Source: an uncultured Methanosarcinales archaeon (GTDB lineage: Archaea; Halobacteriota; Methanosarcinia; Methanotrichales; Methanotrichaceae). Taken from it: a DNA stretch of 64,000 nucleotides. Below, in pieces: positions 4,432 to 42,762 of the stretch (position 1 is its first letter; each line of letters begins with the position of its first letter). Under the pieces are notes generated by a model. That model made no database searches. It was not told where the DNA came from and saw only the letters and a list, made by a program, of their open reading frames with translations. The DNA is taken from positions 1 through 64,000 of the forward strand of contig CAWJKV010000018.1 of NCBI GenBank assembly GCA_963843555.1. The letters run 5' to 3'. The translations under genes and the position numbers were made by a program.

Positions 4432-5340
4432 GTGAACTGGCCGCTGGTCGCCGCCGCGGGCACCGGGGTGCAGGTGGGCGCGGCCATCGTGGCCTCGCGC
4501 TTCGCGGTGGGCGAAGTGCCGCCGCTGACGCTGGCCATGCTGCGCTACGCGATCGGTTTTTGTTGCCTGCTGCCCTTCGCGTGGCGCGGGATGCGGGACT
4601 TTCCTGGCTCCCCCGACGCTGCACCCGTCAACGCGAGCCGGGCCCGCGACCTGCTGGCGATGGCGGCATTGGGCATCGGTCAGTTCGGCGTGCTGATCGC
4701 CCTGCTGAACTTCGGGCTGCAGCACATAGCGGCGGCGCAGGCCGCGCTGATCTTCAGCCTGTTTCCCCTGCTCACCCTGCTGCTCGCGGCAGCGCTCGGT
4801 CGCGAGCGAATCACCTGGCAGTTGCTGCTGGGCGTCGTGCTCACGATCGCGGGCGTGGCACTGACCCTGGCACCCAAGCTGGGGGCCCCGCGGGCCGGCC
4901 ACTGGTGGGGCGAACTCGCGGTGGCGGCGGCCGCGGCCACCGGGGCCCTGTGCAGCGTGCTGTATCGACCTTATCTGCGGCGTTATCCGACGGTGCCGGT
5001 GTCTGCCTTCGCCATGCTGGCCTCGGTGCTGTTCCTGGCCGTGCTCGCCACCGGCGAGCACTGGCCGGCACGCCTCGCGAGCTTCAGCACCTCCGCATGG
5101 GCCGCCATTGCTTTCATCGGTGTGTCCAGCGGCATCGGTTATTTCTGGTGGCTGTATGCCCTCAAGCACGAATCGCCGACCCGAGTGACGGTGTTCCTGG
5201 GCCTCAACCCGGTGACGGCGGCGCTGCTGGGGTGGGCGCTGCTGGGAGAAACGCTGCCGCCCGCGGCGTTGGCGGCGCTGGCATTGACCGTGGCGGGCCT
5301 CTGGCTCGCAACCCGCGGTCCGAGATCGACCGCGTCGTGA
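4432..5340 (+). CDS. EamA/DMT family transporter
   Basis: About ten hydrophobic segments, PPLTLAMLRY, ALGRERIT, LNPVTAALLGWALLGE. Confidence 0.85.
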   Translation: MNWPLVAAAGTGVQVGAAIVASRFAVGEVPPLTLAMLRYAIGFCCLLPFAWRGMRDFPGSPDAAPVNASRARDLLAMAALGIGQFGVLIALLNFGLQHIAAAQAALIFSLFPLLTLLLAAALGRERITWQLLLGVVLTIAGVALTLAPKLGAPRAGHWWGELAVAAAAATGALCSVLYRPYLRRYPTVPVSAFAMLASVLFLAVLATGEHWPARLASFSTSAWAAIAFIGVSSGIGYFWWLYALKHESPTRVTVFLGLNPVTAALLGWALLGETLPPAALAALALTVAGLWLATRGPRSTAS

Positions 5341-5378
5341 CGCCGGCTGCTTGACGCAGGGACGCCATAATCCCCGGG

Positions 5379-5975
5379 ATGATGTCATCGCCCGAGGCGC
5401 CGATCGCAGCGCCAACCCCGCCTCGCTCGCAGCCACAGTCGCTCACCGATCTGTTCGTCTCCTTCACCGTGCTGGCCCTGCAGGGCTTTGGCGGCGTGCT
5501 GGCCGTCGCGCAGCGCGAACTGGTGGAGCGCAAACGCTGGATGACGAACGAGGAATTCGTCGAGGAATGGGCCGTGGCGCAGATCATGCCCGGCCCCAAC
5601 ATCATCAACCTGTGCATCATGATCGGCGGGCGCTATTTCGGCCTGCGCGGTGCGCTGGCCGCCCTGGCCGGCATGCTGCGGTGCCGCTGTCTGGTGCTGC
5701 TGCTGGCGCCCTGCTCTACGCCCAGTACGCCAATCATCCGGGCGTGATCGGCGCGTTGCGTGGCATGGGGGCCGTGGCCGCCGGCCTGATCGTGGCCACC
5801 GGTCTCAAGCTGTTTCCGGCCCTGAAGAAGAACGCCCTCGGCATGGGCGTGTGTATCGCGCTGGCGTCCTTGCGTTTCGTTGCCGTGGCCATCCTGCGCT
5901 GGCCGCTGGCCTACGTGCTGCTCGGCCTGGGCGTTGTCGCCTGCACCCTCGCCTACCGGAAGACTCAAGGCATGA
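5379..5975 (+). CDS. Short-chain chromate transporter (CHR family) subunit 1, frameshifted
   Basis: GFGG, ELVERKRW and AQIMPGP motifs; continues in another frame after ~5680. Confidence 0.8.
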
Positions 5976-6552
5976 ACATCGTCCTGCACTTCGGCTGGAA
6001 CGACTGGCTGTCATGTTCTGCACCCACTTCCTCTCGCTCTCGCTGCTCGCCGTCGGCGGCGCCATCACCACCGCACCGGACATGCACCGTTATCTGGTGG
6101 ACCAGCAGGGCTGGCTGACGGACCGCCAGTTCAATGCCTCGATTGCCATCGCCCAGGCCGCGCCCGGCCCCAATGTCCTCTTCGTCGCGCTGATGGGCTG
6201 GAACGTCGGCCTCAATGCCGGCGGCCTGTGGCATGCGCTGCTGGGCGTGCTGCTCTCCATGCTGGGCATCATGCTGCCCAGCTCCGCCCTGACCTACTTC
6301 GCTTCGCGCTGGGGCCATGAGAACCGCGAGCTGCGCGCCGTGCGCGCCTTCAAGCAGGGCATGGCGCCCATCGTCATCGCGCTGCTGATCGCCACCGGCT
6401 GGATCCTGGCCAGCGCGCAGCGCGACCCGGCGCACGACTGGCCGCTGTGGCTGATGACCGTGGTCAGCGCGCTCATCGTCTGGCGCACCCGGCTGCACCT
6501 GCTGTGGCTGCTGGGTGCCGGCGCCCTGCTGGGCTGGTTCGGCTGGATTTGA
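5972..6552 (+). CDS. Short-chain chromate transporter (CHR family) subunit 2, frameshift near 5' end
   Basis: AVGGA, IAQAAPGPN and MLPSS motifs; ATGA overlap with the previous gene. Confidence 0.8.
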
Positions 6553-6570
6553 GTCCGGCCGGGCCGGGCT

Positions 6571-6972
6571 TCAATCCAGGATCAGCTGAGTCTGCGTGAC
6601 CACCGCACAGAGCTTGCCTTCGGCCGACCGGATCGCCGTCTGCCAGACCATCGTCGTCCTGCCGCGGTGCAGCGCGATGCACTCCCCCACCACCGTGGTG
6701 TCCAGTTTCGCCGCGCCGATGAACTTGGTGCTGGAATCGGTCGTCGTGGTTCGCTTGCCCTTGGGCAGGTTCAGCACCGTCCCGATTGCGCCCAAGGTGT
6801 CGGCAAAAGCCATGTAGGCGCCGCCGTGCAGGATGTGCCCGGCGGTGCAGAGGTTAGCGCGGACCCGCAGCTCGCCCACCACCCGCTCGGGCGCCAGATC
6901 GACAAGACGCACGCCCATCAGGCCGGGAAAGAGCGGCTCCAGCAGCTGCTGGATGGACGCTATCGAATGCAT
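6571..6972 (-). CDS. PaaI family thioesterase
   Basis: HGGAYMAFADTLG hot-dog fold motif and HRGRTTMVWQ. Confidence 0.85.
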   Translation of the reverse strand: MHSIASIQQLLEPLFPGLMGVRLVDLAPERVVGELRVRANLCTAGHILHGGAYMAFADTLGAIGTVLNLPKGKRTTTTDSSTKFIGAAKLDTTVVGECIALHRGRTTMVWQTAIRSAEGKLCAVVTQTQLILD

Positions 6973-27739: not shown

Positions 27740-30700
27740 TTACACTGTGCCTTTGAGGCGGTTTTGAGTCAGATTGATGCTGTACGCGGCTGGAGCGTTC
27801 CCCGGATCGATCTCAAGAACCCTTTCGAAGGCGCTGAGGGCTTCTTGAAAACGGCCTGCTGCCACCAGAGCCAGGCCCTTATTATAATGAGCATCTGCAT
27901 TATGGGGCATAAGCTTGATGGTTTTCTCAAAGCTCGAAAGGGCTTCCTCAGATTGGGCGATCTGGTTTTGGGCAAGGCCAAGTCCGAGCCAGGCATAAGC
28001 GTCGTCCGGAGCAAGCATCGTCGCATTCTTGTAAGCCATTACGGATTGGCCGTACTGGCCCAGGAAATAATATACCTGGCCCAGATTGTACCAAACCGCC
28101 TCATTGGACGCGTTGGCTTTGGAGGCCCATTGCAGGCTTTTCAGGGCCTCATCATACCTTCCTGAAGTTGCCTGCAGGCTCCCCAGGTTGGACCAGGCAG
28201 CATAGTTTCCGGGATCGATGGAGACGATCTCCTGGAAGCATATCATAGCGCGAGAGCTATTGCCGAGAGCCGCCAATGCCAGGCCTTTGCCCATCAAGGC
28301 CTCAATATTTGATGGCTCCAAACTCAGGACGCTATCGAAGGACTGCAGAGATTCGTTATACTCTCCATTGAGACAGAGAAGATTCCCCAAACCATTATAG
28401 CCGCGGGTGTCAACTGGGTCGGCGTTTATGGCCTGTTCATAATAGTGGCGAGCAGCACTGAAATTGCCTTTTTCACGAAATACGTTGCCCATTCCAGAAA
28501 GCGCAATAGAGCTACGCGGTTCAATAGCAAGAGCCCTCTCGTAGCTCGGCCTGGCGCGGTCTGGATCATTCTGGCAGAGGAGGGCGTCCCCAGCACCCAC
28601 CCAGGCATCAATGTTGCTGGCATCCAGTGTCAGGACGTCTTCATAGAACTGCAGAGCTCGTCTGCAATTATTCAAAGCATAGTTAGCTCTTGCAGCACCC
28701 AGGAGTCCCTGGACATTCTGCGGGTCAATTTCTAGAAGTCTCTCGTAGAACGACAGGGCGAGCTCTGCGGAGTTATTGCGCAGAAGTGTGTCCCCTATGC
28801 TGAGAAGAGCATATATGTTATCCTCATCCCTGGCGAGGATGCGATCATAAGCCACCAGAGCTCCGGCAAGATCGTTTTGTGCCCTGAGCACATCTCCCTG
28901 GCCCTGCAGAGCCATGGTATTCTCAGGATCCAGCCGGAGGATCTGCTCATAGGATTGCAGTGCCTTATCCGTCTGGCCCTGCAAACGCAGTGCCTCTCCT
29001 TTTCCATAGAGAGCGGAAATGTTTTGAGGGGAGACATTCAGAGCCGCGTTAAAGCTGTCTGCTGCGGAAGGATACCTCTGCAGTGCCAGGAATGAGTCTC
29101 CCTTGCCGAGAAATGCCCGAAGGTCGTCGGGCTTTATTTTCAAGGCCTGATCGAAGGCCTGAAGGGAAGAGTTGAAATCTTGCTGGGCATAAAGAGCCCC
29201 GGCAAAGCCTATCATCGATTCAAGATCGTCAGGGTTCTGCTCCAGTGCCGCTCCAAAAGACTCTGCTGGCCTGATCGTACTCTTTGAGCGCGATCTGTGT
29301 TTCACCCATGCCTCGCAAGGCTTTGGCATTTCCTGGGGAAAGCTGCAGTGCACGGGCAAAGGACTGCAGAGCCTCCTGATACCTTTCCAGTTCAAGGAGC
29401 AGTCTGCCCCGGTTCATGATGATCCCGGTATCATTCTCATCCAGCTGCAATGCCCTGTCATAGCTATTCAGGGCACCCTTGTAGTCTTGCAGCTGCTCGT
29501 GTACATCGGCCGAAATGTTCCACAAAGTTATATTCTTGGGCTCCAACCGCAGGGCAGATTCTAGAGATAGCTTTGCCATTTTATATTTTCCAATCGTTGA
29601 CAGGATCCGGCCCTTTAAGGCCCAGGCTGATGCATTATACTGATCCAGCTCCAGCGCCTTATTCAAAGAATTTATTGCCTCGGATGGACGGCCGAGCCGG
29701 AAGAGGATCTGCCCTTTGAAGAGCCACGCAACAGACTTCTTGCCGTCTGCCTCAATGGACTTATTTATGCTATCCAGGGCTTGAGAATAAGAACCGATTT
29801 TGCTATAATTCTGAGCCTGGAACAAGAAGCGGCTGTAATTGGAGCCGTTGTCTTTCTGCGAGACGACATTTCCAGACCTGTCGCCAGACCAGTCCCTAGA
29901 CCAGTTCCCGGTCCTGTTCCCGGACATGGATGATTCGGACACGGAAACTTCCGACCTATCGACAATTTCAGCCGAAGCCTTCTCTTTCCCGGCCAGGGAT
30001 GCCCTGTCCGGGGGAGAAATAGCTGGAACTGTTTCATTGCTCTCCAAAGCGTCCGAGAAGAGCCCTTTGTCCAGCTGCCGGTCCCCTTGAGCCTTCAGAG
30101 CCTGGGCCAGGCCTTGCTTTGCCTCTCCATTCTTGGGATCGAGCAGGTTCGCTTCTTCGAAGATCGCCCTGGCCTGGGAGGCATTTCCCCTGGCGAGCTG
30201 CAATTGTCCCAGGCCCGCCAGGGCGCGAGACTTGCCTTCTTTTGCTTTCGGATCTGATGAGTTGCCGGCAAGAACCTTATTGAAGCTTTGCAGAGCCTCG
30301 TCATAGCGGCCTGTGGCAATGGATGCATTCCCAATCCCGAGCCGAGCCTCGACCAGGCTGCCGTCTTGGGCCAGAGCGCGGTCGTAACCCTGCAGAGCCC
30401 GGGCCCAATCTTTATCCAGCTCAGCAGCGCGGGCCTCTTCCAGCCAAAGCACGGGATTCTTTGGGTCCTTTCGCAGAGCGAGATCGAAGTAAAGCCCGGC
30501 CATTTTATACCTTCCCAACCTGGATAGAGCCGTGCCTTTGCCAACCCATGCCGATGCGTTCTCGGGATCGATTTTCAGTACGCGGTCAAAGCTTTCGACG
30601 GCCTGCTGAAATGAGCCGTTTAAGAGAGCCACATGGCCCATCTCCAGCCAGCTGGCTGCGCTCTCCTCGGAAGAGGCCGAGACAGGGAGAGATACGAGCA

Positions 30701-30764
30701 GCATGCAAGCTAGCATGACGGATGGCATCAGGTAGGGGGGAGAGGACTTCTGCAAAGCAATCAC
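27740..30764 (-). CDS. Very long secreted TPR protein (~1000 aa; frameshift near 29260)
   Basis: Signal peptide followed by many 34-aa TPR units; the two track ORFs overlap at 29229-29395. Confidence 0.85.
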
Positions 30765-30856
30765 TATTTTCTCCAGATATTTCAGATAGGTTATATTACC
30801 AGCGCCTTCACCAATGCCTAGAGCAAGAATTTATCAATTAGCCGATGTGGTATTCT

Positions 30857-32260
30857 ATGGTTAACATGGCAACACCATTCGCCAAAAGAAATATCCTGAT
30901 GATCTCTGCAGGCGGCTCCTTCCTGGCTCCTTTTATGGTTTCAGCCCTGATCGTGGCCATTCCCACCATCGGCGTTGAATTCTCCATGGATGCGGTCGCC
31001 ATGAGCTGGCTGGCCACGGTCTTTTTTCTGGCAGCATCCATGTTCCTCATTCCTTTCGGGAGATTGGCCGACATCTTTGGCGTTAAGAAGATCTTTTCCA
31101 TCGGCATTGTCATCTGCTTTGTCTCTGCCTCTCTGGCAGCACTGGCACCCAGCGCCCCGGTTCTGATCGCGGCTCGTTTCCTGACGGGAGTTGGCGCTGC
31201 CATGATCTTTGGAACCTCTTTTGCTCTGCTTAGCCTATCGCTTTCGGAGAGCGAGAGGGGAGAGGCACTGGGCATAAACATCGCCTCTAACCTCACTGGA
31301 TTTGCCCTGGGATTTTTCCTGGGAGGGCTTCTGACCAACTACTCGAGCTGGAGGTTCATTTTCGTCATAACTCTTCCCATAAGCACCCTGGTGATGGCAT
31401 TAATTCGACTGAGGCTTCCGGGCGAGTGCGCATTTTCCAAAGGACAGAAGTTCGATGTGATTGGGTCCGCCATGATTGTAGCCCTTTTGTTTCTGGTTAT
31501 TCTGGGGCTATCCGAACTTCCCTCGATTTCGGGAGGCGCCCTCATCTTATGTGGGATAGCGGTGTTTTTGCTGTACAGTTGGCATCAATCCAGTAATAGC
31601 AGTCCAGTGATAGATCTTGCTCTCTTTCGCAACCGTTGTTTCTCATTTTCCAATGCTGCCATATTGATCTACACCACATCCAACCTGGCGGTCATCTTCC
31701 TCTTCAGTTTTTATCTGCAGTATATTAGAGGATTCGATAGCAATCAGTCGGGTCTGATCTTGATGGCATCTACCCTGATAATGGCCATGCTCGTGATTTA
31801 CGCCGGTCGTCTATCGGACCGCATGAATCTTTACCGCCTGGCCTCAATAGGGGTGATTGTATCCCTGGCAGGCCTTTTGCCCATGATCTTCATCTCACCA
31901 GACACGCCTCTCTCCCTGGCTTTCCTGGAGCTAACTCTGGTTTCGGCGGGTGCAGCGCTCTTTTATCCTCCCATGGTAAAGATAATTCTGGGCTCCATAC
32001 ACCGGGATAAGTACGGTGTGGGCTCCAGCCTGGCAGAGACCATGCGTCTTGTAGGAAATGCTGCCAGCATGGCCCTCGTTACGGTTGGTTTCACCTTTTA
32101 TCTGGGGGGATCGGTCATCTTGCCTGAAAATTACCCGGCTTTTCTGCAGAGCATGAGGTTGATACTGGCTGCCTTTTCGGTTCTTTGTATGGCCAGTTTG
32201 CTCCTGATTCAGCTGGCTTCACACACAAGCCGCAAAAAAAAGATGACGGACGAAAGCTGA
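30857..32260 (+). CDS. MFS transporter (14-TM EmrB/QacA-like)
   Basis: GRLADIFGVK, ARFLTGVG, SWRFIF and GRLSDR. Confidence 0.9.
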   Translation: MVNMATPFAKRNILMISAGGSFLAPFMVSALIVAIPTIGVEFSMDAVAMSWLATVFFLAASMFLIPFGRLADIFGVKKIFSIGIVICFVSASLAALAPSAPVLIAARFLTGVGAAMIFGTSFALLSLSLSESERGEALGINIASNLTGFALGFFLGGLLTNYSSWRFIFVITLPISTLVMALIRLRLPGECAFSKGQKFDVIGSAMIVALLFLVILGLSELPSISGGALILCGIAVFLLYSWHQSSNSSPVIDLALFRNRCFSFSNAAILIYTTSNLAVIFLFSFYLQYIRGFDSNQSGLILMASTLIMAMLVIYAGRLSDRMNLYRLASIGVIVSLAGLLPMIFISPDTPLSLAFLELTLVSAGAALFYPPMVKIILGSIHRDKYGVGSSLAETMRLVGNAASMALVTVGFTFYLGGSVILPENYPAFLQSMRLILAAFSVLCMASLLLIQLASHTSRKKKMTDES

Positions 32261-32371
32261 GGATCTCAACCTGATGAAATCCGGCGTTGAAATCATGATC
32301 GGATTCTCAAATTCCGTCAAAATGCTTAAGTTGGTTGGAGTCAATAGAGTCAAGCTGATCAGGATCAATCT

Positions 32372-33970
32372 ATGAACGATAAATATCCCGGCTGTGATGT
32401 CCTTCTTACGGGCTATGAAGATCATGAAAACCTGGGGCTGCGCTACATCGCCGCGTACCTCAGGGCGCATGGCATCAGAGCAGGGATGGAGCCCATGACC
32501 AGGTCCTCGAACGACGACCTGATGGAGAGGATAAAAAGGGACAGTCCAAAGATAGTAGGGTTTTCCCTCATATTCCAGGGGATGTTCACCCAGTTCAAAG
32601 ACCTCATCGGGCGGTTAAGAGATGAGGGCATTCGAGCCCACTTCACAATGGGAGGCCACTTCCCGACGCTGGACTACGAGAGAACTCTCGTACTGATGCC
32701 TGGACTCGACACAGTTGTGCGTCATGAGGGCGAGGAGACGCTCCTCGAGCTTTACGAGAAGATCGACCGACCGGACCTCTGGCCGCAGATAAAAGGGCTG
32801 GCATGGAGGCGTGGTGGAAAGATAGAGGCATCAGAGCCACGACCACTCATAGAGAACCTGGATCTGTTGCCTTTTCCGGTTAGAGATGCCGAGATGAAAA
32901 CTCATATAGGAATGCCTGCAGCATCTATCCTATCGAGCCGGGGATGCAATTTTGACTGCAGCTTCTGCAGCATCCGCAGGTTCTATGGAAGCGCACCTGG
33001 CCCTCTCCGGCGCTCCCGATCTGCCAAGAACGTGGCAGACGAGATGGAGACCCTCTACGAAAATGGGGCCCGCATCTTCGACTTCAAGGATGACGACTTC
33101 GCTATGAAGGGCCGGTCGAGGAGCCGATGGATAGAGGACCTTGCGGGGGAGCTGGAGAGAAGGTCCCTTTCTGATGACATAATCCTGAAGGTAAGCTGCC
33201 GGATAGATGAGATCGAGAGCGAAGCGCTGCAGAGAATGAAAGAGATAGGCCTTGGTATGGTCTACCTGGGTATAGAGTCAGGCTCGGAGGGTGGTCTGAA
33301 GAGCTTTAACAAGCATTACGGCGTCGGCGAGATCCGCGAGACACTGCAGATCCTCCAGGCTATCCAGATGGGTTTTGAGTACGGCTTCATGATCATCGAG
33401 CCCTCTTCGAGCTTTGATTCCATCAGGGAGAACATCTCTTTTCTCCAGGAGCTGTGCAGGGGCGGTAGGGTCGTCGCCCATTTCGCCAGGACCTATCCCT
33501 ATGTCGGGACGGCTGTGGCTGCACGCCTCAAAGCGGAGGGAAGGCTTAAGGGAACTATAGACTACCCCGACTACAGCTACCTCGACGGCAGGATCGACCT
33601 CTTCGAGAGGTTCTTGAATAGGGCCTTTGGCCGATTTCTCTTCGAGACGCAAGGGCTCGTGAACCAGATACAAAACTCCTTCTGGAATGCTCTGCTCCTG
33701 CAGAGATTCGGCAGAGATTCCTACGATGTGGAGGGCTACACGAAGTACCTGATGATGCTCACGGAGAGGTGCAACAATTCTACACTGCTGGCTCTCTCGA
33801 GGGCAGTGGGCTACATGGAGGAGAGAAGCGAGGTCGAGATCCTGCGAGACTGGAAGGAGATGGAACTTGTCATCCAGGAAGTGCTGTTGGCCCAGTCCGG
33901 AATTGAGAAGCAACTGGACGTTCTGAACAGCACATATCACACCATGCCGGAGTTCTGGAAAGGGGTATAG
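32372..33970 (+). CDS. Cobalamin-binding radical SAM enzyme 1
   Basis: B12 domain ENLGLRYIAAYL...MGGHFPT; SSRGCNFDCSFC cluster motif; DDDF and GIESG. Confidence 0.9.
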   Translation: MNDKYPGCDVLLTGYEDHENLGLRYIAAYLRAHGIRAGMEPMTRSSNDDLMERIKRDSPKIVGFSLIFQGMFTQFKDLIGRLRDEGIRAHFTMGGHFPTLDYERTLVLMPGLDTVVRHEGEETLLELYEKIDRPDLWPQIKGLAWRRGGKIEASEPRPLIENLDLLPFPVRDAEMKTHIGMPAASILSSRGCNFDCSFCSIRRFYGSAPGPLRRSRSAKNVADEMETLYENGARIFDFKDDDFAMKGRSRSRWIEDLAGELERRSLSDDIILKVSCRIDEIESEALQRMKEIGLGMVYLGIESGSEGGLKSFNKHYGVGEIRETLQILQAIQMGFEYGFMIIEPSSSFDSIRENISFLQELCRGGRVVAHFARTYPYVGTAVAARLKAEGRLKGTIDYPDYSYLDGRIDLFERFLNRAFGRFLFETQGLVNQIQNSFWNALLLQRFGRDSYDVEGYTKYLMMLTERCNNSTLLALSRAVGYMEERSEVEILRDWKEMELVIQEVLLAQSGIEKQLDVLNSTYHTMPEFWKGV

Positions 33971-33981
33971 AGATCTAGATT

Positions 33982-35335
33982 TTAAGGTCCTGGGATCTGA
34001 GGTTTAAGAGTCCAGGTCGGACAGCCTTCGATTACTACCTTTGGAGGAACGACCCTGAACAGCTCGCCTGTCTTCTGGCTGAGGGAGTAGAACCTGTAGA
34101 GCATCTCGACCTGAGCCTGGACGATATCTGTAAATGGTATGCCCACCCCATCCGGGAAGTAGTCTGCTCTCTTCTCATACAGCTCCGTTCCTGGCAGAAT
34201 GTCCAGGACATTGGGAAGCACTCTCGCCGAGGGCCTGGCCTCGTCTATGAACTGGAGGATCTGCCCGAGGGATTCGACAGTCTCACCCGGAAGCCCGAGG
34301 ATGAAGGAGCAGTGGGTCTTTATCCCCATCTCCTCGACCATGCGCACGATCTGCTTTGCCTGTTCTATGGAGAAGTCCTTTCGAATAGTGTCGAGGACCT
34401 TCTGGGAGGCGGATTCTATCCCGAAGAAGATCTCCTCGCACCCGGCATCCTTCATCGTCCCGACGAGGTCTTTGGAGAGGAGGTCTATTCTCGTGCTGCA
34501 CCCCCACTTAACGGGCACCTGCCTTCTCTTCATCTCGCTGCAGAGCCCCTCGACGCGATCCTTGCGCATGGTGAAGTTGTCATCCACGAAGGAGACGTTG
34601 TTTATCTTATACTTCTCCACGAGGTATTCAATCTCGTCCACGACCCTTGAGTTATCTCTGACCCGGTACTTCCTGCCGTGCAGGGATGCAGTCGAGCAGA
34701 AGATGCAGTTGAAGGGACAGCCCCTGGTGGTGATGACGGGCATGCACCTCACAGCGCCATTGCCGATGTAGGCCTCGGGCGTTGGATCGAGAAGGTGGTA
34801 CGCAGGAAAGGGGAGGCTGTCCAGATCTTCCATCCTCTCCCGCAGAGGCGTCGATACTATCCGGCTGCCGTCTCTGTAGGATATGCCGAGCACGTCTGTG
34901 GGAGTCCGGCCGCCTTCGAGGCTTTCTGCAATCTCAGTGAGGGCGTGCTCACCTTCATACCGGACAACAATATCGACTTCCGGCACTGATTTGAGGATCT
35001 CCTCGTGGGTGAATGTGGCATGCACGCCGCCCATGACGATTTTTATGCCGGGATCGTATGACTTTACTGCCTTCGCCACATCGACTGCATTTTTGTAGTT
35101 GGAAGAAAAGGATGTGATGCCGACGATATCCGGTTGGAACTGGGCAAGCCTCTTATTGAGGTCTCCGGGATGAAGGTTGAGCATGTCCATGTCCAGGATC
35201 CGGGCTAGAGAAGCCAGCCTCATCGAGGTATGCCGCAATGTAGCCCAGTCCTAAAGGAATACTTGCGATCTTCATGTAGCCTAAAGGTATCCTGCCGCCG
35301 GTCCAGTAATGTGGGTTGATGAGGAGGATCTTCAA
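33982..35335 (-). CDS. Cobalamin-binding radical SAM enzyme 2 (frameshift near 35205)
   Basis: MKILLINP..PLGLGYIAAYL in one frame, then MGGVHAT, TTRGCPFNCIFC, DDNF and GIESA in the next. Confidence 0.9.
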
Positions 35336-35339
35336 AAAA

Positions 35340-35813
35340 TCACCCGGTTATATCCACGAGGTCGAGCTCCTCCAGGAGGAGAAGAAAGGAGAAGAGATCC
35401 CTTGTGAGAACGCTGCTCTGGACATTCGGCCAGAGGGTCTCAAGATCCGAGATGATGGTGCTTACACTCTTCTCGCCATCGCAGAGCCTGCAGACCTCGG
35501 ATCCCGTGCTGTTGATGAAGAAAGGAATGTAGGTGTCCGGGTGTATGCCCACGACCTGGCTGCCGCCGTCGATCCAGTACTTTCCGTGCCTTCTCACAGG
35601 ATGCTTGCCTGCGAACTCATCAAATCTGATGGTGATCCCCACACCGTCATCGGGGAAAGAGACCTGACAGTCGATCATCTTCTCCTGAGCAAGGACCTCG
35701 CCAATTCTCACCGCAAGCTCAGTCTTGATGTCTCCGGCATTCTTCGATCTTAAGGGAAAGATGGTTGCCACTGCAGGAGGGTCGTACTCAACGTCTGGGA
35801 GCACTCTTTTCAC
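35340..35813 (-). CDS. PqqD-family/RRE domain protein with N-terminal extension
   Basis: C-terminal FINSTGSEVCRLCDGEKSVSTIISDL...DLFSFLLLLEELDLV matches the PqqD/RRE LNxTxxxxWxxxDG..three-helix pattern. Confidence 0.75.
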   Translation of the reverse strand: MKRVLPDVEYDPPAVATIFPLRSKNAGDIKTELAVRIGEVLAQEKMIDCQVSFPDDGVGITIRFDEFAGKHPVRRHGKYWIDGGSQVVGIHPDTYIPFFINSTGSEVCRLCDGEKSVSTIISDLETLWPNVQSSVLTRDLFSFLLLLEELDLVDITG

Positions 35814-35829
35814 TCCGCCGCTCTACTGC

Positions 35830-36222
35830 TCAGAAGGTCGTTTCGCGGAAGCAAGGCGCCGGGTCTACGATCACCGTCGTCCAGGGCTTTATTCTGATGG
35901 GTGCAATGATCGGGTTGATGACGATGCTCGACCACTGCGGGTAGTATCTGTCTATATCCTCGGCCGGGATATTCTTCAGGCTCTCTGTGACGAGGGCCGT
36001 GACCTTCTCCTTCAAGTCTATGGCTGCGTTCAGCCTTTCTTCAGGGTCGCTGTTTGCGGCCTTGACGTAAAGCTTTGCAACTTTCTGCATGAGCTCTTTG
36101 TTATCGGCCATCATGTTCATGATAGCTGACATCGTCTTGAGCTGGCGGACCTGCTCGCTTGTGACCTTGAAGTCGGGCAGCTTTCGCGCCGCCATCTTTT
36201 CAGGGGCATCTTCTTTTGGCAT
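35830..36222 (-). CDS. Putative RiPP precursor peptide (long helical leader plus Ile/Val/Pro-rich core)
   Basis: First gene of the operon, with a charged helical N-terminus; the tail carries WSSIVINP and WTTVIVDP. Confidence 0.6.
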   Translation of the reverse strand: MPKEDAPEKMAARKLPDFKVTSEQVRQLKTMSAIMNMMADNKELMQKVAKLYVKAANSDPEERLNAAIDLKEKVTALVTESLKNIPAEDIDRYYPQWSSIVINPIIAPIRIKPWTTVIVDPAPCFRETTF

Positions 36223-36244
36223 AGAAGTATAATAGGCGGCGATA

Positions 36245-36298
36245 ACTTAAATTGTTTCTTGTATTTGAAATATGTATTTGAAATACGTAATTGAGATT
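36245..36298 (-). promoter_or_regulatory. Archaeal BRE/TATA-like promoter with upstream 13-bp tandem repeats
   Basis: Minus strand GAAACAA-TTTAAGT about 25 nt from the ATG; TGTATTTGAAATA twice (36260-36285) plus a degenerate third copy. Confidence 0.55.
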
Positions 36299-36715: not shown

Positions 36716-36940
36716 TTAGATGAGATCTTGTAGTTCATCTCGACTTATATCCGCTTCTTTAAGAATTTTGCATAAGAGTTTTTTAGGTATATCATAACCG
36801 TGAAATGGAACTACCGTTACTAATTCTTTCTTATTATTATAGTATGTGTGATGGCTTCCAAGAATTCTTATTAAAGCAAATCCATCCTTTTCCAGGGCCT
36901 TTGCAAGTTCCTGAGGGGAGACGGATGGCAACTTAGGCAT
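36716..36940 (-). CDS. hicA: HicA family toxin
   Basis: LEKDGF..GSH..VVPFH..ILKEA. Confidence 0.85.
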   Translation of the reverse strand: MPKLPSVSPQELAKALEKDGFALIRILGSHHTYYNNKKELVTVVPFHGYDIPKKLLCKILKEADISRDELQDLI

Positions 36941-37166
36941 GAGCTTCAACTACTACTGTGTATTCGAATGTTCCTTCTTCCGTTGGAATTTCTTTTCCCA
37001 GGTCATGCAAGGTTTCAATATATACTTCTATGGCCTCTTTTGCCATCTCTACGGCTTCTTCCACAGTTTTTCCGAAGGTATTGCATCCTGGAAGGGTAGG
37101 TACCGAAGCGATATAAACACCTTCTTCCGGATCTTTTTTTATTATTACACGGTATTTCAGGGACAT
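36933..37166 (-). CDS. hicB: HicB family antitoxin (short, no DNA-binding domain)
   Basis: VPTLPGCNTFGKTVEEAVEMAKEAI..IP. Confidence 0.85.
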   Translation of the reverse strand: MSLKYRVIIKKDPEEGVYIASVPTLPGCNTFGKTVEEAVEMAKEAIEVYIETLHDLGKEIPTEEGTFEYTVVVEAHA

Positions 37167-37206
37167 AATCAATCCATCTATTGATCGATCTTGTATATCT
37201 ACATCT

Positions 37207-40892: not shown

Positions 40893-42762
40893 TTAAGTTC
40901 GACGCTTGCACTGGATATCTTCATCGGACGGCATCATATAAGCTATGTCGTCTGCTGGATGGCGGTACAGCCTGGAGCCAAGCCTCTTTTGGTCCAGGAT
41001 ATGCCCGATCAGGCCGATGCTGCGACCGAGCGCAAATAGCCCATTCAGATAACCCAACCGCACGACCTCATCGATCTCCTCTTTGGTGAAAGCACCGCAT
41101 GAGGTCATCAGATCAATAAAGAGAATGCCGATGCAGCCGTCTACATTCAGGATCAGATTCCCCTTCTTGGCTGTGGTTAGCTCTTCCACCTGCAGGGCAT
41201 AGTTGAGAAGCTCCGTGCTGGGGAAATTCGCCCGGGCATAACTTATGAGCAGTTGGACCCGCTTGTCGGGGTTCTTGACGCTCTTGATCTTGTGGCCGAT
41301 GCCAGGAATGTTGATGCCCTTCTTCTTCATCTCTTTCACGAACTGCTCGGGAGCAAGATCAGTCTCGCGAGCGTGCTTGAACTCGCGGGCTGCATCATCG
41401 ATGGCCCCGCCAAAACGCGGACCTATGGTCAATAGGCCGCTGCATAGTGACGAGATGAGATCCTTTCCGGCACACGAGGCCACAATGGCATTATGAGCCC
41501 CGGATACGGCCGGACCGTGGTCCGCCACGATCTGAAGGACCAGTTCGATGAAATGAGAGGCATAGTCCGGCAGCTCCTTCTTGAACCAGAGCAGGCCAAC
41601 AACCCCTCCGATGCCCATCTTCTGGCCCAGAACATCGGAGAGCTTCTTGCCCGCATAGAGCACCTCTTCGCCGCTGTCATCGGAGACGGTGCAGATGAAG
41701 GTGGTGGGCTTGCGAATATCGCCCGATGCAAGCGCTTTGCTGTAGTCGCTGGGAATTTTGGGAACCTCGGGCTCTTCAAATTGCAGAACCACGCCTTTGG
41801 CCAGCAGCATCTCGTATACACGGCGCACAGTCTCGCCATAGTCATCGAATGATGTCAGGCACATAAGCTCCCGCCTCGCGGAAAGCATCGTTCTTGGCCT
41901 GAGCGGTCTCCTTGTGAGAATCGGCCTTGGCACCGGCATGGCCGAACTGAACGCTGGCCGGCAGGAACGGCGAGCAGGTACCTGTTACCCATGCTACCAG
42001 CGGCTTTTTGATCTTTCCCTCTTTCAGGGCCTGAATGATCTTATACTCGTCTTCGCCGCCCAGTTCGCCAAGACAGGCAATCATCTTGATGGCAGGGTTT
42101 TGTTCGTAACGCAGGATGTGGTCGAGCAAGGTCGATCCTGGATAGCGATCTCCTCCGATGGCCACTCCTTCGTAAATGCCGTCCGAATTTCTGGAGATGA
42201 TGTTGAAGGCCTCGTTGAGCATGCCTCCCGATTTGGAGACGAAACCTACACATCCCGGCCGGTAGAGCTTGGAGGCGATGATATTCTCGATGGTCCCTGC
42301 AGTATTGCCGATACGGAAGGCCCCCGCGGTCATGCCGCCCACTGTGGCCGGACCGATGACGATCTTATGGAGCTCTCTGGCTGTGGCACTCATGACACGA
42401 GACTGCCTCTCCGGCACGCCCTCCGCAATTACGGCCACGGTTCGAATGGTCTTCTCCTGCAATGCCTCCATGGTGGTCTCGAAGGCGGAACGGTGACTGG
42501 CAAAGTTCACCATTACATCGGCTTCTGGATAAGCCTTGGCCGCCAGCGAGATGGTCTTATACATGGGCAGAATGATCTCTTTAGTTCCCCAGAATGCCTT
42601 ATGAATGCCGGCTCTGCTGGGATTGATTATGGCAGAGATGCTAGGCGATTCACGTTTGCAGATGTAGTCGAAGTCCAGCATGCGCTGGATGGCATTGGTC
42701 TGATAGCCGTAGACGAATGCTTTGGTGTCTTTATCAAAGAGAACGTATTCTTTCCTGCTCAT
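40893..42762 (-). CDS. aclA: ATP-citrate lyase alpha subunit (frameshift near 41850)
   Basis: [22 protein letters not shown] phospho-His; citryl-CoA lyase part [16 protein letters not shown] and LNVDG. Confidence 0.9.

What the first reader, a model, noticed from the sequence alone, without database searches (positions are those of the whole stretch)
30857..36298. Candidate archaeal RiPP cluster: precursor, RRE protein, two B12-radical SAM enzymes and MFS exporter in a methanogen
Seen: a minus-strand operon of 130-aa ORF, PqqD/RRE-like protein and B12-rSAM, converging on MFS plus a second B12-rSAM. Established: RRE/PqqD domains bind leader peptides and deliver them to modifying enzymes, and B12-dependent radical SAM enzymes C-methylate unactivated carbons in RiPPs (e.g. 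PoyB/PoyC on polytheonamide). Inference: this is a peptide-methylating pathway. I do not recognise it as a described family, and RiPP clusters are little characterised in methanogens. No protease, SPASM enzyme or YcaO is present, so the product could instead be a modified protein that is never cleaved.
Basis: partly seen in the sequence, partly recalled or inferred. Interest (0 to 1): 0.88.

Follow-up and report, generated by a model that had tools for sequence, protein, structure and literature searches.

The report
Archaeal two-enzyme B12 peptide-modification cassette
A methane-producing archaeon carries a rare, apparently undescribed gene set in which a small protein with a variable tail is most likely modified (probably methylated) by two vitamin-B12 radical enzymes, one of them borrowed from a different peptide system.

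Summary
Real and apparently undescribed. The 130-aa ORF belongs to a small archaeal family with a conserved ~95-aa helical leader, an invariant Trp and a hypervariable Trp/Tyr/Pro/Ile-rich tail. It lies directly upstream of every RRE homologue whose upstream DNA was held (5 of 392 class genomes, 6 of 6 metagenome loci). The RRE fold is confirmed. New here: (1) the second enzyme (rSAM-B) nests in a clade whose other members follow small Asp-Pro-motif peptides; the four precursors linked to rSAM-B carry DPAP/DPGP, while G005 lacks both motif and enzyme; (2) the RRE protein carries a lasso-type YxxPxV recognition motif at its own N-terminus, and the leaders carry none. Corrections: rSAM-A is frameshifted in this assembly (probably an error; intact in relatives), and the MFS is probably a bystander. 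C-methylation is inferred from family, not shown; no dedicated protease was found. The scan had not noted this system; it did note the sister EPAH-repeat system, and possibly the Asp-Pro peptide family, on other DNA.

The parts
35830..36222 (-). Precursor-like protein, 130 aa: conserved helical leader (about residues 1-96), invariant Trp97, hypervariable 34-aa tail ending in a DPAP motif
   Evidence: family, leader/core contrast; helices 22-105, tail pLDDT <50; dN/dS 0.06 leader, 0.095 core vs G054; motif
35340..35813 (-). Stand-alone RRE (PqqD-like domain, residues ~70-156) with a conserved N-terminal extension bearing its own [YF]xxPx[VI] motif
   Evidence: PqqD over cut-off; 3 strands + 3 helices; strand at 15-17; TbiB1 rmsd 1.4-1.9 A, Z 10.7; motif; only PqqD match in the genome
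33982..35335 (-). rSAM-A: B12-binding radical SAM enzyme (CX3CX2C), split in this assembly by one extra base near 35205-35207; 456 aa in G054
   Evidence: own clade always next to RRE and precursor
32372..33970 (+). rSAM-B: B12-binding radical SAM enzyme, 532 aa, convergent; member of a clade otherwise encoded behind Asp-Pro-motif peptides
30845..32260 (+). DHA2/EmrB-like MFS transporter; neighbour, probably not part of the system
   Evidence: family; not linked elsewhere, background divergence
36240..36288 (-). Putative promoter: TATA-like box about 25 nt before the start codon, preceded by two copies of an 11-bp palindrome (possible regulator site)
   Evidence: Read from the sequence; nearly the same in G054. 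Function inferred, not tested

Best explanation
A RiPP-type post-translational modification system in two layers. Core module (gene linkage shown): precursor + RRE + rSAM-A. The folded helical leader is the handle, the stand-alone RRE is the adaptor, and rSAM-A modifies the flexible aromatic/Pro/Ile-rich tail that begins at the invariant Trp (inferred). Accessory module (linkage shown, target inferred): rSAM-B, recruited from a family that works on Asp-Pro-small-residue motifs, modifies the DPAP/DPGP motif found in the tails of the precursors that travel with it. The most likely chemistry is cobalamin-dependent C-methylation of unactivated carbons, possibly iterative for rSAM-A (inferred from class B rSAM precedent: ApyD, MpcB, PoyB/C). 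With no conserved protease or transporter, the product either stays a modified small protein or is cut by a housekeeping protease. My odds for the steps: precursor is the substrate of rSAM-A 0.8; rSAM-B acts at or next to DP[AG]P 0.6; reaction is methylation 0.65; MFS is a dedicated exporter 0.15; the frameshift is an assembly error 0.75.
For: Linkage: the RRE family occurs in 5 of 392 class genomes, each with the precursor directly upstream. All 6 of 6 metagenome loci with the RRE have a precursor-leader HMM hit directly upstream, and 5 of the 6 show rSAM-A directly downstream; L020 ends too soon. The 8 rSAM-A rows form one clade with 100% SH-aLRT in a quick tree. Architecture: leader mean pairwise identity is 37% vs 20% shuffled, tail 26% vs 20%; tails are 9.9% W, 8.5% Y, 13.6% P against 0.1% W in leaders (16 sequences). 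W97 is invariant in 22 of 22 rows. Some tails hold internal repeats (P0014, L019). Purifying selection on all four genes, dN/dS 0.06-0.16. rSAM-B: 12 of 392 genomes hold an orthologue. Four have our precursor, with DPAP, DPAP, DPGP, DPGP. Seven have a small upstream peptide with DP[AV]. The twelfth (G684) has a broken enzyme near a contig end. The four linked genomes hold no such small peptide (0 of 5 handles; the control rang in 3 of 5). G005 (99% complete) has the core module but no DP motif and no orthologue (best match 29% identity). DP[AG]P occurs by chance in 0.06-0.1% of 34-mers. Between G000 and G054 the block rSAM-B to precursor is 88-96% identical, against 78-84% for the MFS and 70-80% for the TPR gene.
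Against: No biochemistry. Neither enzyme reaches any NCBIfam cut-off, so the reaction is unassigned, and the nearest solved relatives include non-methylating enzymes (AprD4, OxsB). The tails share no motif beyond the first Trp, so the target of rSAM-A is undefined. None of 26 dereplicated leaders has the canonical [WYFL]xxP recognition motif. The motif-enzyme correlation rests on few related lineages: G000/G054 are near relatives, L018 equals G567, and the negative side is mainly G005 and L021. For the other precursors the neighbourhood is unknown. DP[AGV] appears by chance in 5% of 75-mers. The tree is the quick version. rSAM-A is frameshifted in this assembly, and no reads of this strain were available.
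Confidence: 0.62

Rival explanations
1. Same genes and substrate, but the chemistry is not simple methylation: rSAM-A cross-links or rearranges the aromatic residues (Trp/Tyr) of the tail, or methylates the indole of the invariant Trp as TsrM does on free Trp.
For: The only shared tail features are the invariant Trp and aromatic richness of 8-48%. The ApyD paper notes that B12-rSAMs also form C-S and C-P bonds, contract rings and cyclise (PMC10635010, passage). The best PDB sequence hit is AprD4.
Against: No SPASM domain was found in either enzyme. The best NCBIfam hit of rSAM-A is the peptide C-beta methyltransferase ApyD, though far below cut-off (232 vs 750 bits). TsrM scores much lower (48 bits NCBIfam, 34 bits PDB).
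Confidence: 0.15
2. The 130-aa protein is a structural partner or regulator, and the real rSAM-A substrate is the N-terminal extension of the RRE protein itself, presented in cis by its own YxxPxV motif.
For: The motif is in 18 of 19 RRE homologues; the exception is an N-terminally truncated fragment. Residues 9-24 are as conserved as the RRE sheet (0.63 vs 0.62). The leaders lack the motif.
Against: A hypervariable, disordered, repeat-bearing tail on a conserved leader is the precursor pattern. The DP motif that tracks rSAM-B is in that tail, not in the RRE protein.
Confidence: 0.1
3. One reading: modified peptide released and exported by the adjacent MFS.
For: The MFS lies 111 bp upstream of rSAM-B on the same strand here and is also adjacent in G054. 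It is a DHA2/EmrB-like efflux type.
Against: No MFS is adjacent in G005, G567, G576 or L021. G005 and G567 have only 27-31% homologues, while cassette-free G019 and G022 have 37-43% ones. dS is 0.65 against 0.15-0.29 for the four cassette genes. No conserved protease.
Confidence: 0.1
4. The system is real in relatives but disabled in this strain: the frameshift in rSAM-A is genuine.
For: The assembly has the extra base. No run of the same strain was found (best share of words 0.35).
Against: All 3 of the 4 laid runs that cover the place lack the base. 3 of 8 neighbouring genes compared with G054 are split in this assembly. The 3' part of rSAM-A still shows dN/dS 0.13.
Confidence: 0.2

Closest known systems
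Aminopyruvatides, ApyD (PMC10635010; passages read)
   Same: RRE-dependent pathway with a class B B12-rSAM acting on a ribosomal peptide; ApyD methylates the C-beta of Tyr; best NCBIfam hit of rSAM-A.
   Different: ApyD has a fused RRE (model length 645); score 232 vs cut-off 750; no MNIO, P450 or methyltransferase here; bacterial; here a long folded leader and a variable tail.
Clavusporins, MpcB/MpcC (PMC10849626; first of six parts read)
   Same: Iterative beta-methylation of Pro, Val, Ile and Thr by a B12-rSAM; the window's tail is 56% I/V/T/P.
   Different: MpcB has CX7CX2C and needs DUF5825, with an S9 peptidase and transporter in the operon and a 39-mer precursor. Here both enzymes have CX3CX2C, an RRE stands in the operon and there is no peptidase.
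Polytheonamide/proteusin PoyB and PoyC (PMC11285071; passages)
   Same: Two B12-rSAMs acting on one long-leader precursor, dividing the work.
   Different: PoyB and PoyC are close paralogues and PoyC has CX7CX2C. Here the two enzymes are about 30% identical and from separate clades, TIGR03975 is not reached, the leader has no Pfam/NCBIfam match, and there is no epimerase.
Crp system of Methanococcus voltae (PMC13692751; first of nine parts read)
   Same: RiPP-like radical SAM modification of a protein-sized substrate in a methanogen.
   Different: SPASM enzyme, Cys-rich substrate, thioether cross-links. Here B12 enzymes and tails with 0-2 Cys.
Lasso-peptide stand-alone RREs TbiB1 (5v1u) and B1 of 6jx3
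   Same: Best structural matches to the RRE domain; their leaders carry YxxP (PMC12710340 section 7).
   Different: Here the YxxP motif is on the RRE polypeptide and not on the precursor; no lasso cyclase or peptidase.
MCR C-methyltransferase QCMT/MgmA (TIGR04014, PDB 9ccb)
   Same: Methanogen B12-rSAM acting on a protein; best PDB sequence hit of rSAM-B.
   Different: Scores 115 and 64 vs cut-off 360; no RRE or dedicated precursor in that system (recalled).

Membership tests
RRE / PqqD domain | Pfam PqqD above gathering score | tested here: met
   28.2 vs 23.4 bits; NCBIfam PqqD equivalogs not reached
RRE / PqqD domain | Three-stranded sheet plus three helices | tested here: met
   Model strands 80-82, 87-90, 97-100 and helices 102-110, 117-127, 133-149; TbiB1 rmsd 1.4 A, prob 1.00, E 0.008; Z 10.7 over 84 residues
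RRE / PqqD domain | Cognate leader carries a W/Y/LxxP-type recognition sequence | tested here: not met
   0 of 26 dereplicated leaders; the motif is instead in 18 of 19 RRE N-termini. Other RRE motif types were not tested
RRE / PqqD domain | Binds the precursor as fourth strand | not testable with these tools
   Needs a binding assay or structure
RiPP pathway (general) | Conserved leader plus variable core, co-encoded with modifying enzymes | tested here: met
RiPP pathway (general) | Core is enzymatically modified | not testable with these tools
   Needs MS
RiPP pathway (general) | Leader removed and product exported by linked genes | tested here: inconclusive
   No conserved protease or transporter in the loci; housekeeping enzymes not excluded
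Class B (cobalamin-dependent) radical SAM enzymes | N-terminal B12-binding domain plus rSAM domain with Cys triad | tested here: met
   Both enzymes; CX3CX2C
Class B (cobalamin-dependent) radical SAM enzymes | Methyltransferase activity | not testable with these tools
   Inferred only
PoyB/PoyC/MpcB-type RiPP C-methyltransferases (TIGR03975) | CX7CX2C motif and model cut-off 281.85 | tested here: not met
   CX3CX2C; 129 and 52 bits
Proteusins | NHLP or Nif11 leader (recalled definition) | tested here: not met
   No such Pfam or NCBIfam match at E<=0.1
Clavusporins | DUF5825 partner and S9 peptidase in the operon | tested here: not met
   Operon genes are precursor, RRE and rSAM only
Aminopyruvatides | ApyD over cut-off, with MNIO and P450 | tested here: not met
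   232 vs 750 bits; no such genes in the loci
Crp / ranthipeptide type | SPASM enzyme and Cys-rich substrate | tested here: not met
   No SPASM in either enzyme; 0-2 Cys per tail
MCR glutamine C-methyltransferase (TIGR04014) | Model cut-off 360 | tested here: not met
   115 and 64 bits

The most novel reading that the evidence does not exclude
A new archaeal class of multiply C-methylated, aromatic/Pro-rich peptides or small proteins with inverted recognition logic. The RRE groove is filled by the RRE protein's own YxxPxV tail (self-liganded or auto-inhibited adaptor), and the precursor is read through a folded helical bundle. The pathway was extended by grafting an Asp-Pro motif into the tail and recruiting a second B12 enzyme from a follower-peptide system, a natural case of combinatorial RiPP evolution. 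The precursor family reaches at least Ca. Thorarchaeota.
Probability: 0.3. Interest if true: 0.85.

Novelty: new variant of a known kind. Interest (0 to 1): 0.66.

Why it matters
Characterised archaeal RiPP chemistry is thin: the papers I saw cover haloarchaeal lanthipeptides and one SPASM thioether system in a methanogen. This cassette offers two unassigned B12-rSAM clades with named candidate substrates and a sharp prediction (rSAM-B needs Asp-Pro-Ala/Gly). An enzyme that tolerates a hypervariable tail would be a useful peptide C-methylation tool. An RRE carrying its own recognition motif would revise how RRE-based genome mining assigns precursors. The limits are its rarity (5 of 392 class genomes for the RRE family), unknown chemistry and unknown biological role.

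Tried and rejected
Co-folding RRE with precursor: no answer, score 0.00 in two runs; no evidence either way. Fold search of the precursor model: nothing above the helical-bundle background (Foldseek best E 0.74; VIA best Z 5.6). ESM Atlas: no usable hit for the precursor or for a DP-motif peptide. Homology of the leader to the follower helix of the DP peptides: none. Idea that the RRE extension copies a leader helix: hhalign probability 1.3%, PSSM tail fractions 0.01-0.29 with shifting registers; dropped. Phylum-wide precursor search: 2 of 401 rang, the own genome and G475 (E 4e-4 inside an 820-aa frame), which I dropped as spurious. Viral contigs: no relative of RRE or rSAM-B. Plasmids: only ~30% rSAM-B homologues; two were opened and gave nothing usable. 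Sigma-70 promoter/terminator scan at chance level and not apt for archaea. Predicting radical vs SN2 chemistry from the lower axial residue: the TokK alignment was seen but the paper searched held no such passage; left open. RNA runs X15 and X17 have contigs on all four cassette genes, but contigs cannot show transcription, level or strand, and missing cover of the MFS proves nothing. The careful tree did not finish; the quick tree was used. Literature searches showed no description of this system, and no listed paper held the term DPAP. Subscription papers and supplements, such as RRE-Finder tables, were not seen and could list this RRE.
Full report
Observation. Pfam gives PqqD over cut-off for the 157-aa protein, B12-binding plus Radical_SAM for both enzymes, MFS_1 for the transporter and nothing significant for the 130-aa ORF. 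No NCBIfam model reaches its cut-off. The window is G000:C18, in a 2.68-Mb, 82% complete genome with McrA. The nearest titled record is an uncultured Methanosarcinales archaeon. The minus-strand enzyme (rSAM-A) is split by one extra base near 35205-35207 and is a single 456-aa ORF in L001/G054. Three of the four laid runs cover the place and all three lack the base; they are relatives, not this strain. Three of eight neighbouring genes compared with G054 are split in this assembly, and the 3' part of rSAM-A is under purifying selection. An assembly error is the likelier cause.

The precursor family. Searches gave 6 close homologues, 15 representatives at 50% clustering and 16 hits with a profile, 7 of them new. 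One is labelled Ca. Thorarchaeota by NCBI; the other 19 of 20 looked up have no informative name. Over 16 sequences the region before Trp97 has 37% mean pairwise identity (shuffled 20%) and the region after it 26% (shuffled 20%). Tails are rich in W, Y, P, I and R, and leaders almost free of W. Trp97 is invariant in 22 of 22 rows. The model has confident helices over residues 22-95 and a disordered tail. dN/dS is 0.06-0.19 in three pairs, so the gene is real. The family is rare: 4 of 105 genomes of the family (in G021 the gene lies at a contig end), and only the own genome convincingly among 401 drawn from the phylum.

Linkage of the core module. The RRE family occurs in 5 of 392 class genomes. 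In all five the precursor is directly upstream. rSAM-A is directly downstream in four; in G576 it starts at the end of another contig. All 6 of 6 metagenome loci show the precursor upstream, and 5 show rSAM-A downstream. L018 duplicates G567, L001 duplicates G054, and L021/L022 are close to each other, so independent cases are fewer than rows. rSAM-A orthologues are 51-81% identical among the five compared and form one clade (quick tree, 35 rows). Other family matches are 33-38% identical and fall outside it.

The RRE. The model has the three-strand, three-helix fold, and its best matches are lasso-peptide RREs and PqqD. It is the only PqqD match in the genome. Its N-terminal extension carries [YF]xxPx[VI] in 18 of 19 homologues, against a 1% background per 20-mer (homologues are not independent). 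It is as conserved as the sheet and forms a short strand at residues 15-17 in the model. YxxP is the lasso recognition sequence and W/Y/LxxP a broad RRE motif (PMC12710340, section 7). None of 26 dereplicated leaders has such a motif. I infer that the RRE may fill its own groove; I had no coordinates to confirm what the strand pairs with.

The second enzyme. At E<=1e-60, 18 of 392 genomes match rSAM-B. Twelve hold orthologues of about 48-53% identity or more (the one in G076 is in two pieces), five hold only the sister clade that sits beside EPAH-repeat proteins, and one is an outgroup. Among the twelve, four (G000, G054, G567, G576) have it convergent with rSAM-A, and their tails carry DPAP, DPAP, DPGP, DPGP. 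Seven (G486, G062, G076, G555, G557, G584, G593) lack our RRE family and have a 70-130-aa gene directly upstream with DP[AV] motifs and a C-terminal helix; G486 has five such genes, four with DPAP. G684 has a broken enzyme and only the helix part visible. The four linked enzymes form a group (94% SH-aLRT, below the tool's 95 mark) nested among the DP-peptide enzymes. No DP-peptide gene was found in the four linked genomes or G005 (controls), so the precursor is the only candidate substrate seen. G005, 99% complete, has the core module without motif or orthologue, and L021 has neither motif nor adjacent enzyme. Only 3 of 26 dereplicated tails have DP[AG]P, and they are the ones from rSAM-B genomes. 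Between G000 and G054 the four genes stand out as one high-identity block, although a TPR gene is inserted between the two enzymes in G054.

The MFS. It is adjacent only in G000 and G054, follows background divergence, and has better homologues in genomes without the cassette. I treat it as a neighbour.

Mechanism. Shown: gene linkage, domain content, fold, selection and motif distribution. Inferred: leader recognition through the RRE/rSAM-A pair, modification of the tail, a DP-directed second modification and C-methylation as the reaction. The precedents are ApyD, MpcB and PoyB/C. The window's tail is 56% I/V/T/P, the residue set that MpcB methylates. A hydrophobic, possibly surface-active or membrane-binding product is a guess by analogy only.

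Comparison and novelty. It works like an RRE-dependent class B rSAM RiPP pathway but fails membership in proteusins, clavusporins, aminopyruvatides, Crp and QCMT (see Membership tests). Seven literature searches and a term search of an archaeal RiPP survey (PMC12144867, passages, no B12 or cobalamin mention) showed no description; subscription papers and supplements were not seen. The scan's notes hold nothing on this precursor or this rSAM-B sequence, but do hold the sister EPAH system and a possibly related small-protein system.

Verdict. A real, rare, apparently undescribed variant of a known kind, with two features a specialist would find unusual and a direct test for each.

Noticed in passing
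window 1-~23,500: GC 0.60-0.70 and tetranucleotide distance 0.026-0.053 against a genome mean of 0.015; synteny with G054 stops at ~23,520 inside a RecJ-family gene. Probably a chimeric join with foreign, bacterial-looking DNA; findings in this part may not belong to the archaeon.
   Followed up: partly
L006:8236-11437 (G000:C5): Paralogue of rSAM-B followed by a 463-aa protein with 12 EP[AV]H motifs and 4 matches to a PQPxP-type motif. EPAH-repeat neighbours were found in 6 of 6 loci of that clade. Sister clade to the DP-motif enzymes, suggesting a superfamily aimed at acidic-Pro-Ala/Val motifs.
   Followed up: partly
L041:5744-9236 (G486); L067-L070 (G557, G555, G584, G593); L042, L043 (G062, G076): A separate two-gene system: small DP[AV]-motif peptides with a C-terminal helix (five tandem paralogues in G486) directly upstream of a B12-rSAM, without this RRE family. 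No NCBIfam family for the G486 peptides. Worth its own study.
   Followed up: partly
window 27740-30764: TPR gene split by a frameshift; one 1047-aa ORF in G054. The citrate-lyase-like ORFs at 40893-42762 also look split.
   Followed up: partly
window 36260-36288: Two tandem copies of an 11-bp palindrome just upstream of a TATA-like box of the precursor gene, kept in G054; possible regulator site.
   Followed up: no
window 36716-37172: HicA/HicB toxin-antitoxin pair next to riboflavin kinase at the cassette edge.
   Followed up: no
L071:1053-6591 (G695): Two or three rSAM-like ORFs converging on a 76-aa ORF that reads like a leader peptide with a short Cys-containing tail (my reading, not scanned); another possible methanogen RiPP locus.
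   Followed up: no
L063:4313-5488 (G567): Phage-integrase gene directly beside the cassette, in line with patchy, mobile distribution.
   Followed up: no
L001:352-1710 and 4850-6796 (G054); L009:142-1969 (G005): An rSAM-SPASM gene and an oligopeptidase-like ORF (my reading; no Pfam hit at 1e-6) lie upstream in G054, and TfuA/YcaO-like ORFs (my reading) ~8 kb upstream in G005. None is conserved in the other loci.
   Followed up: partly
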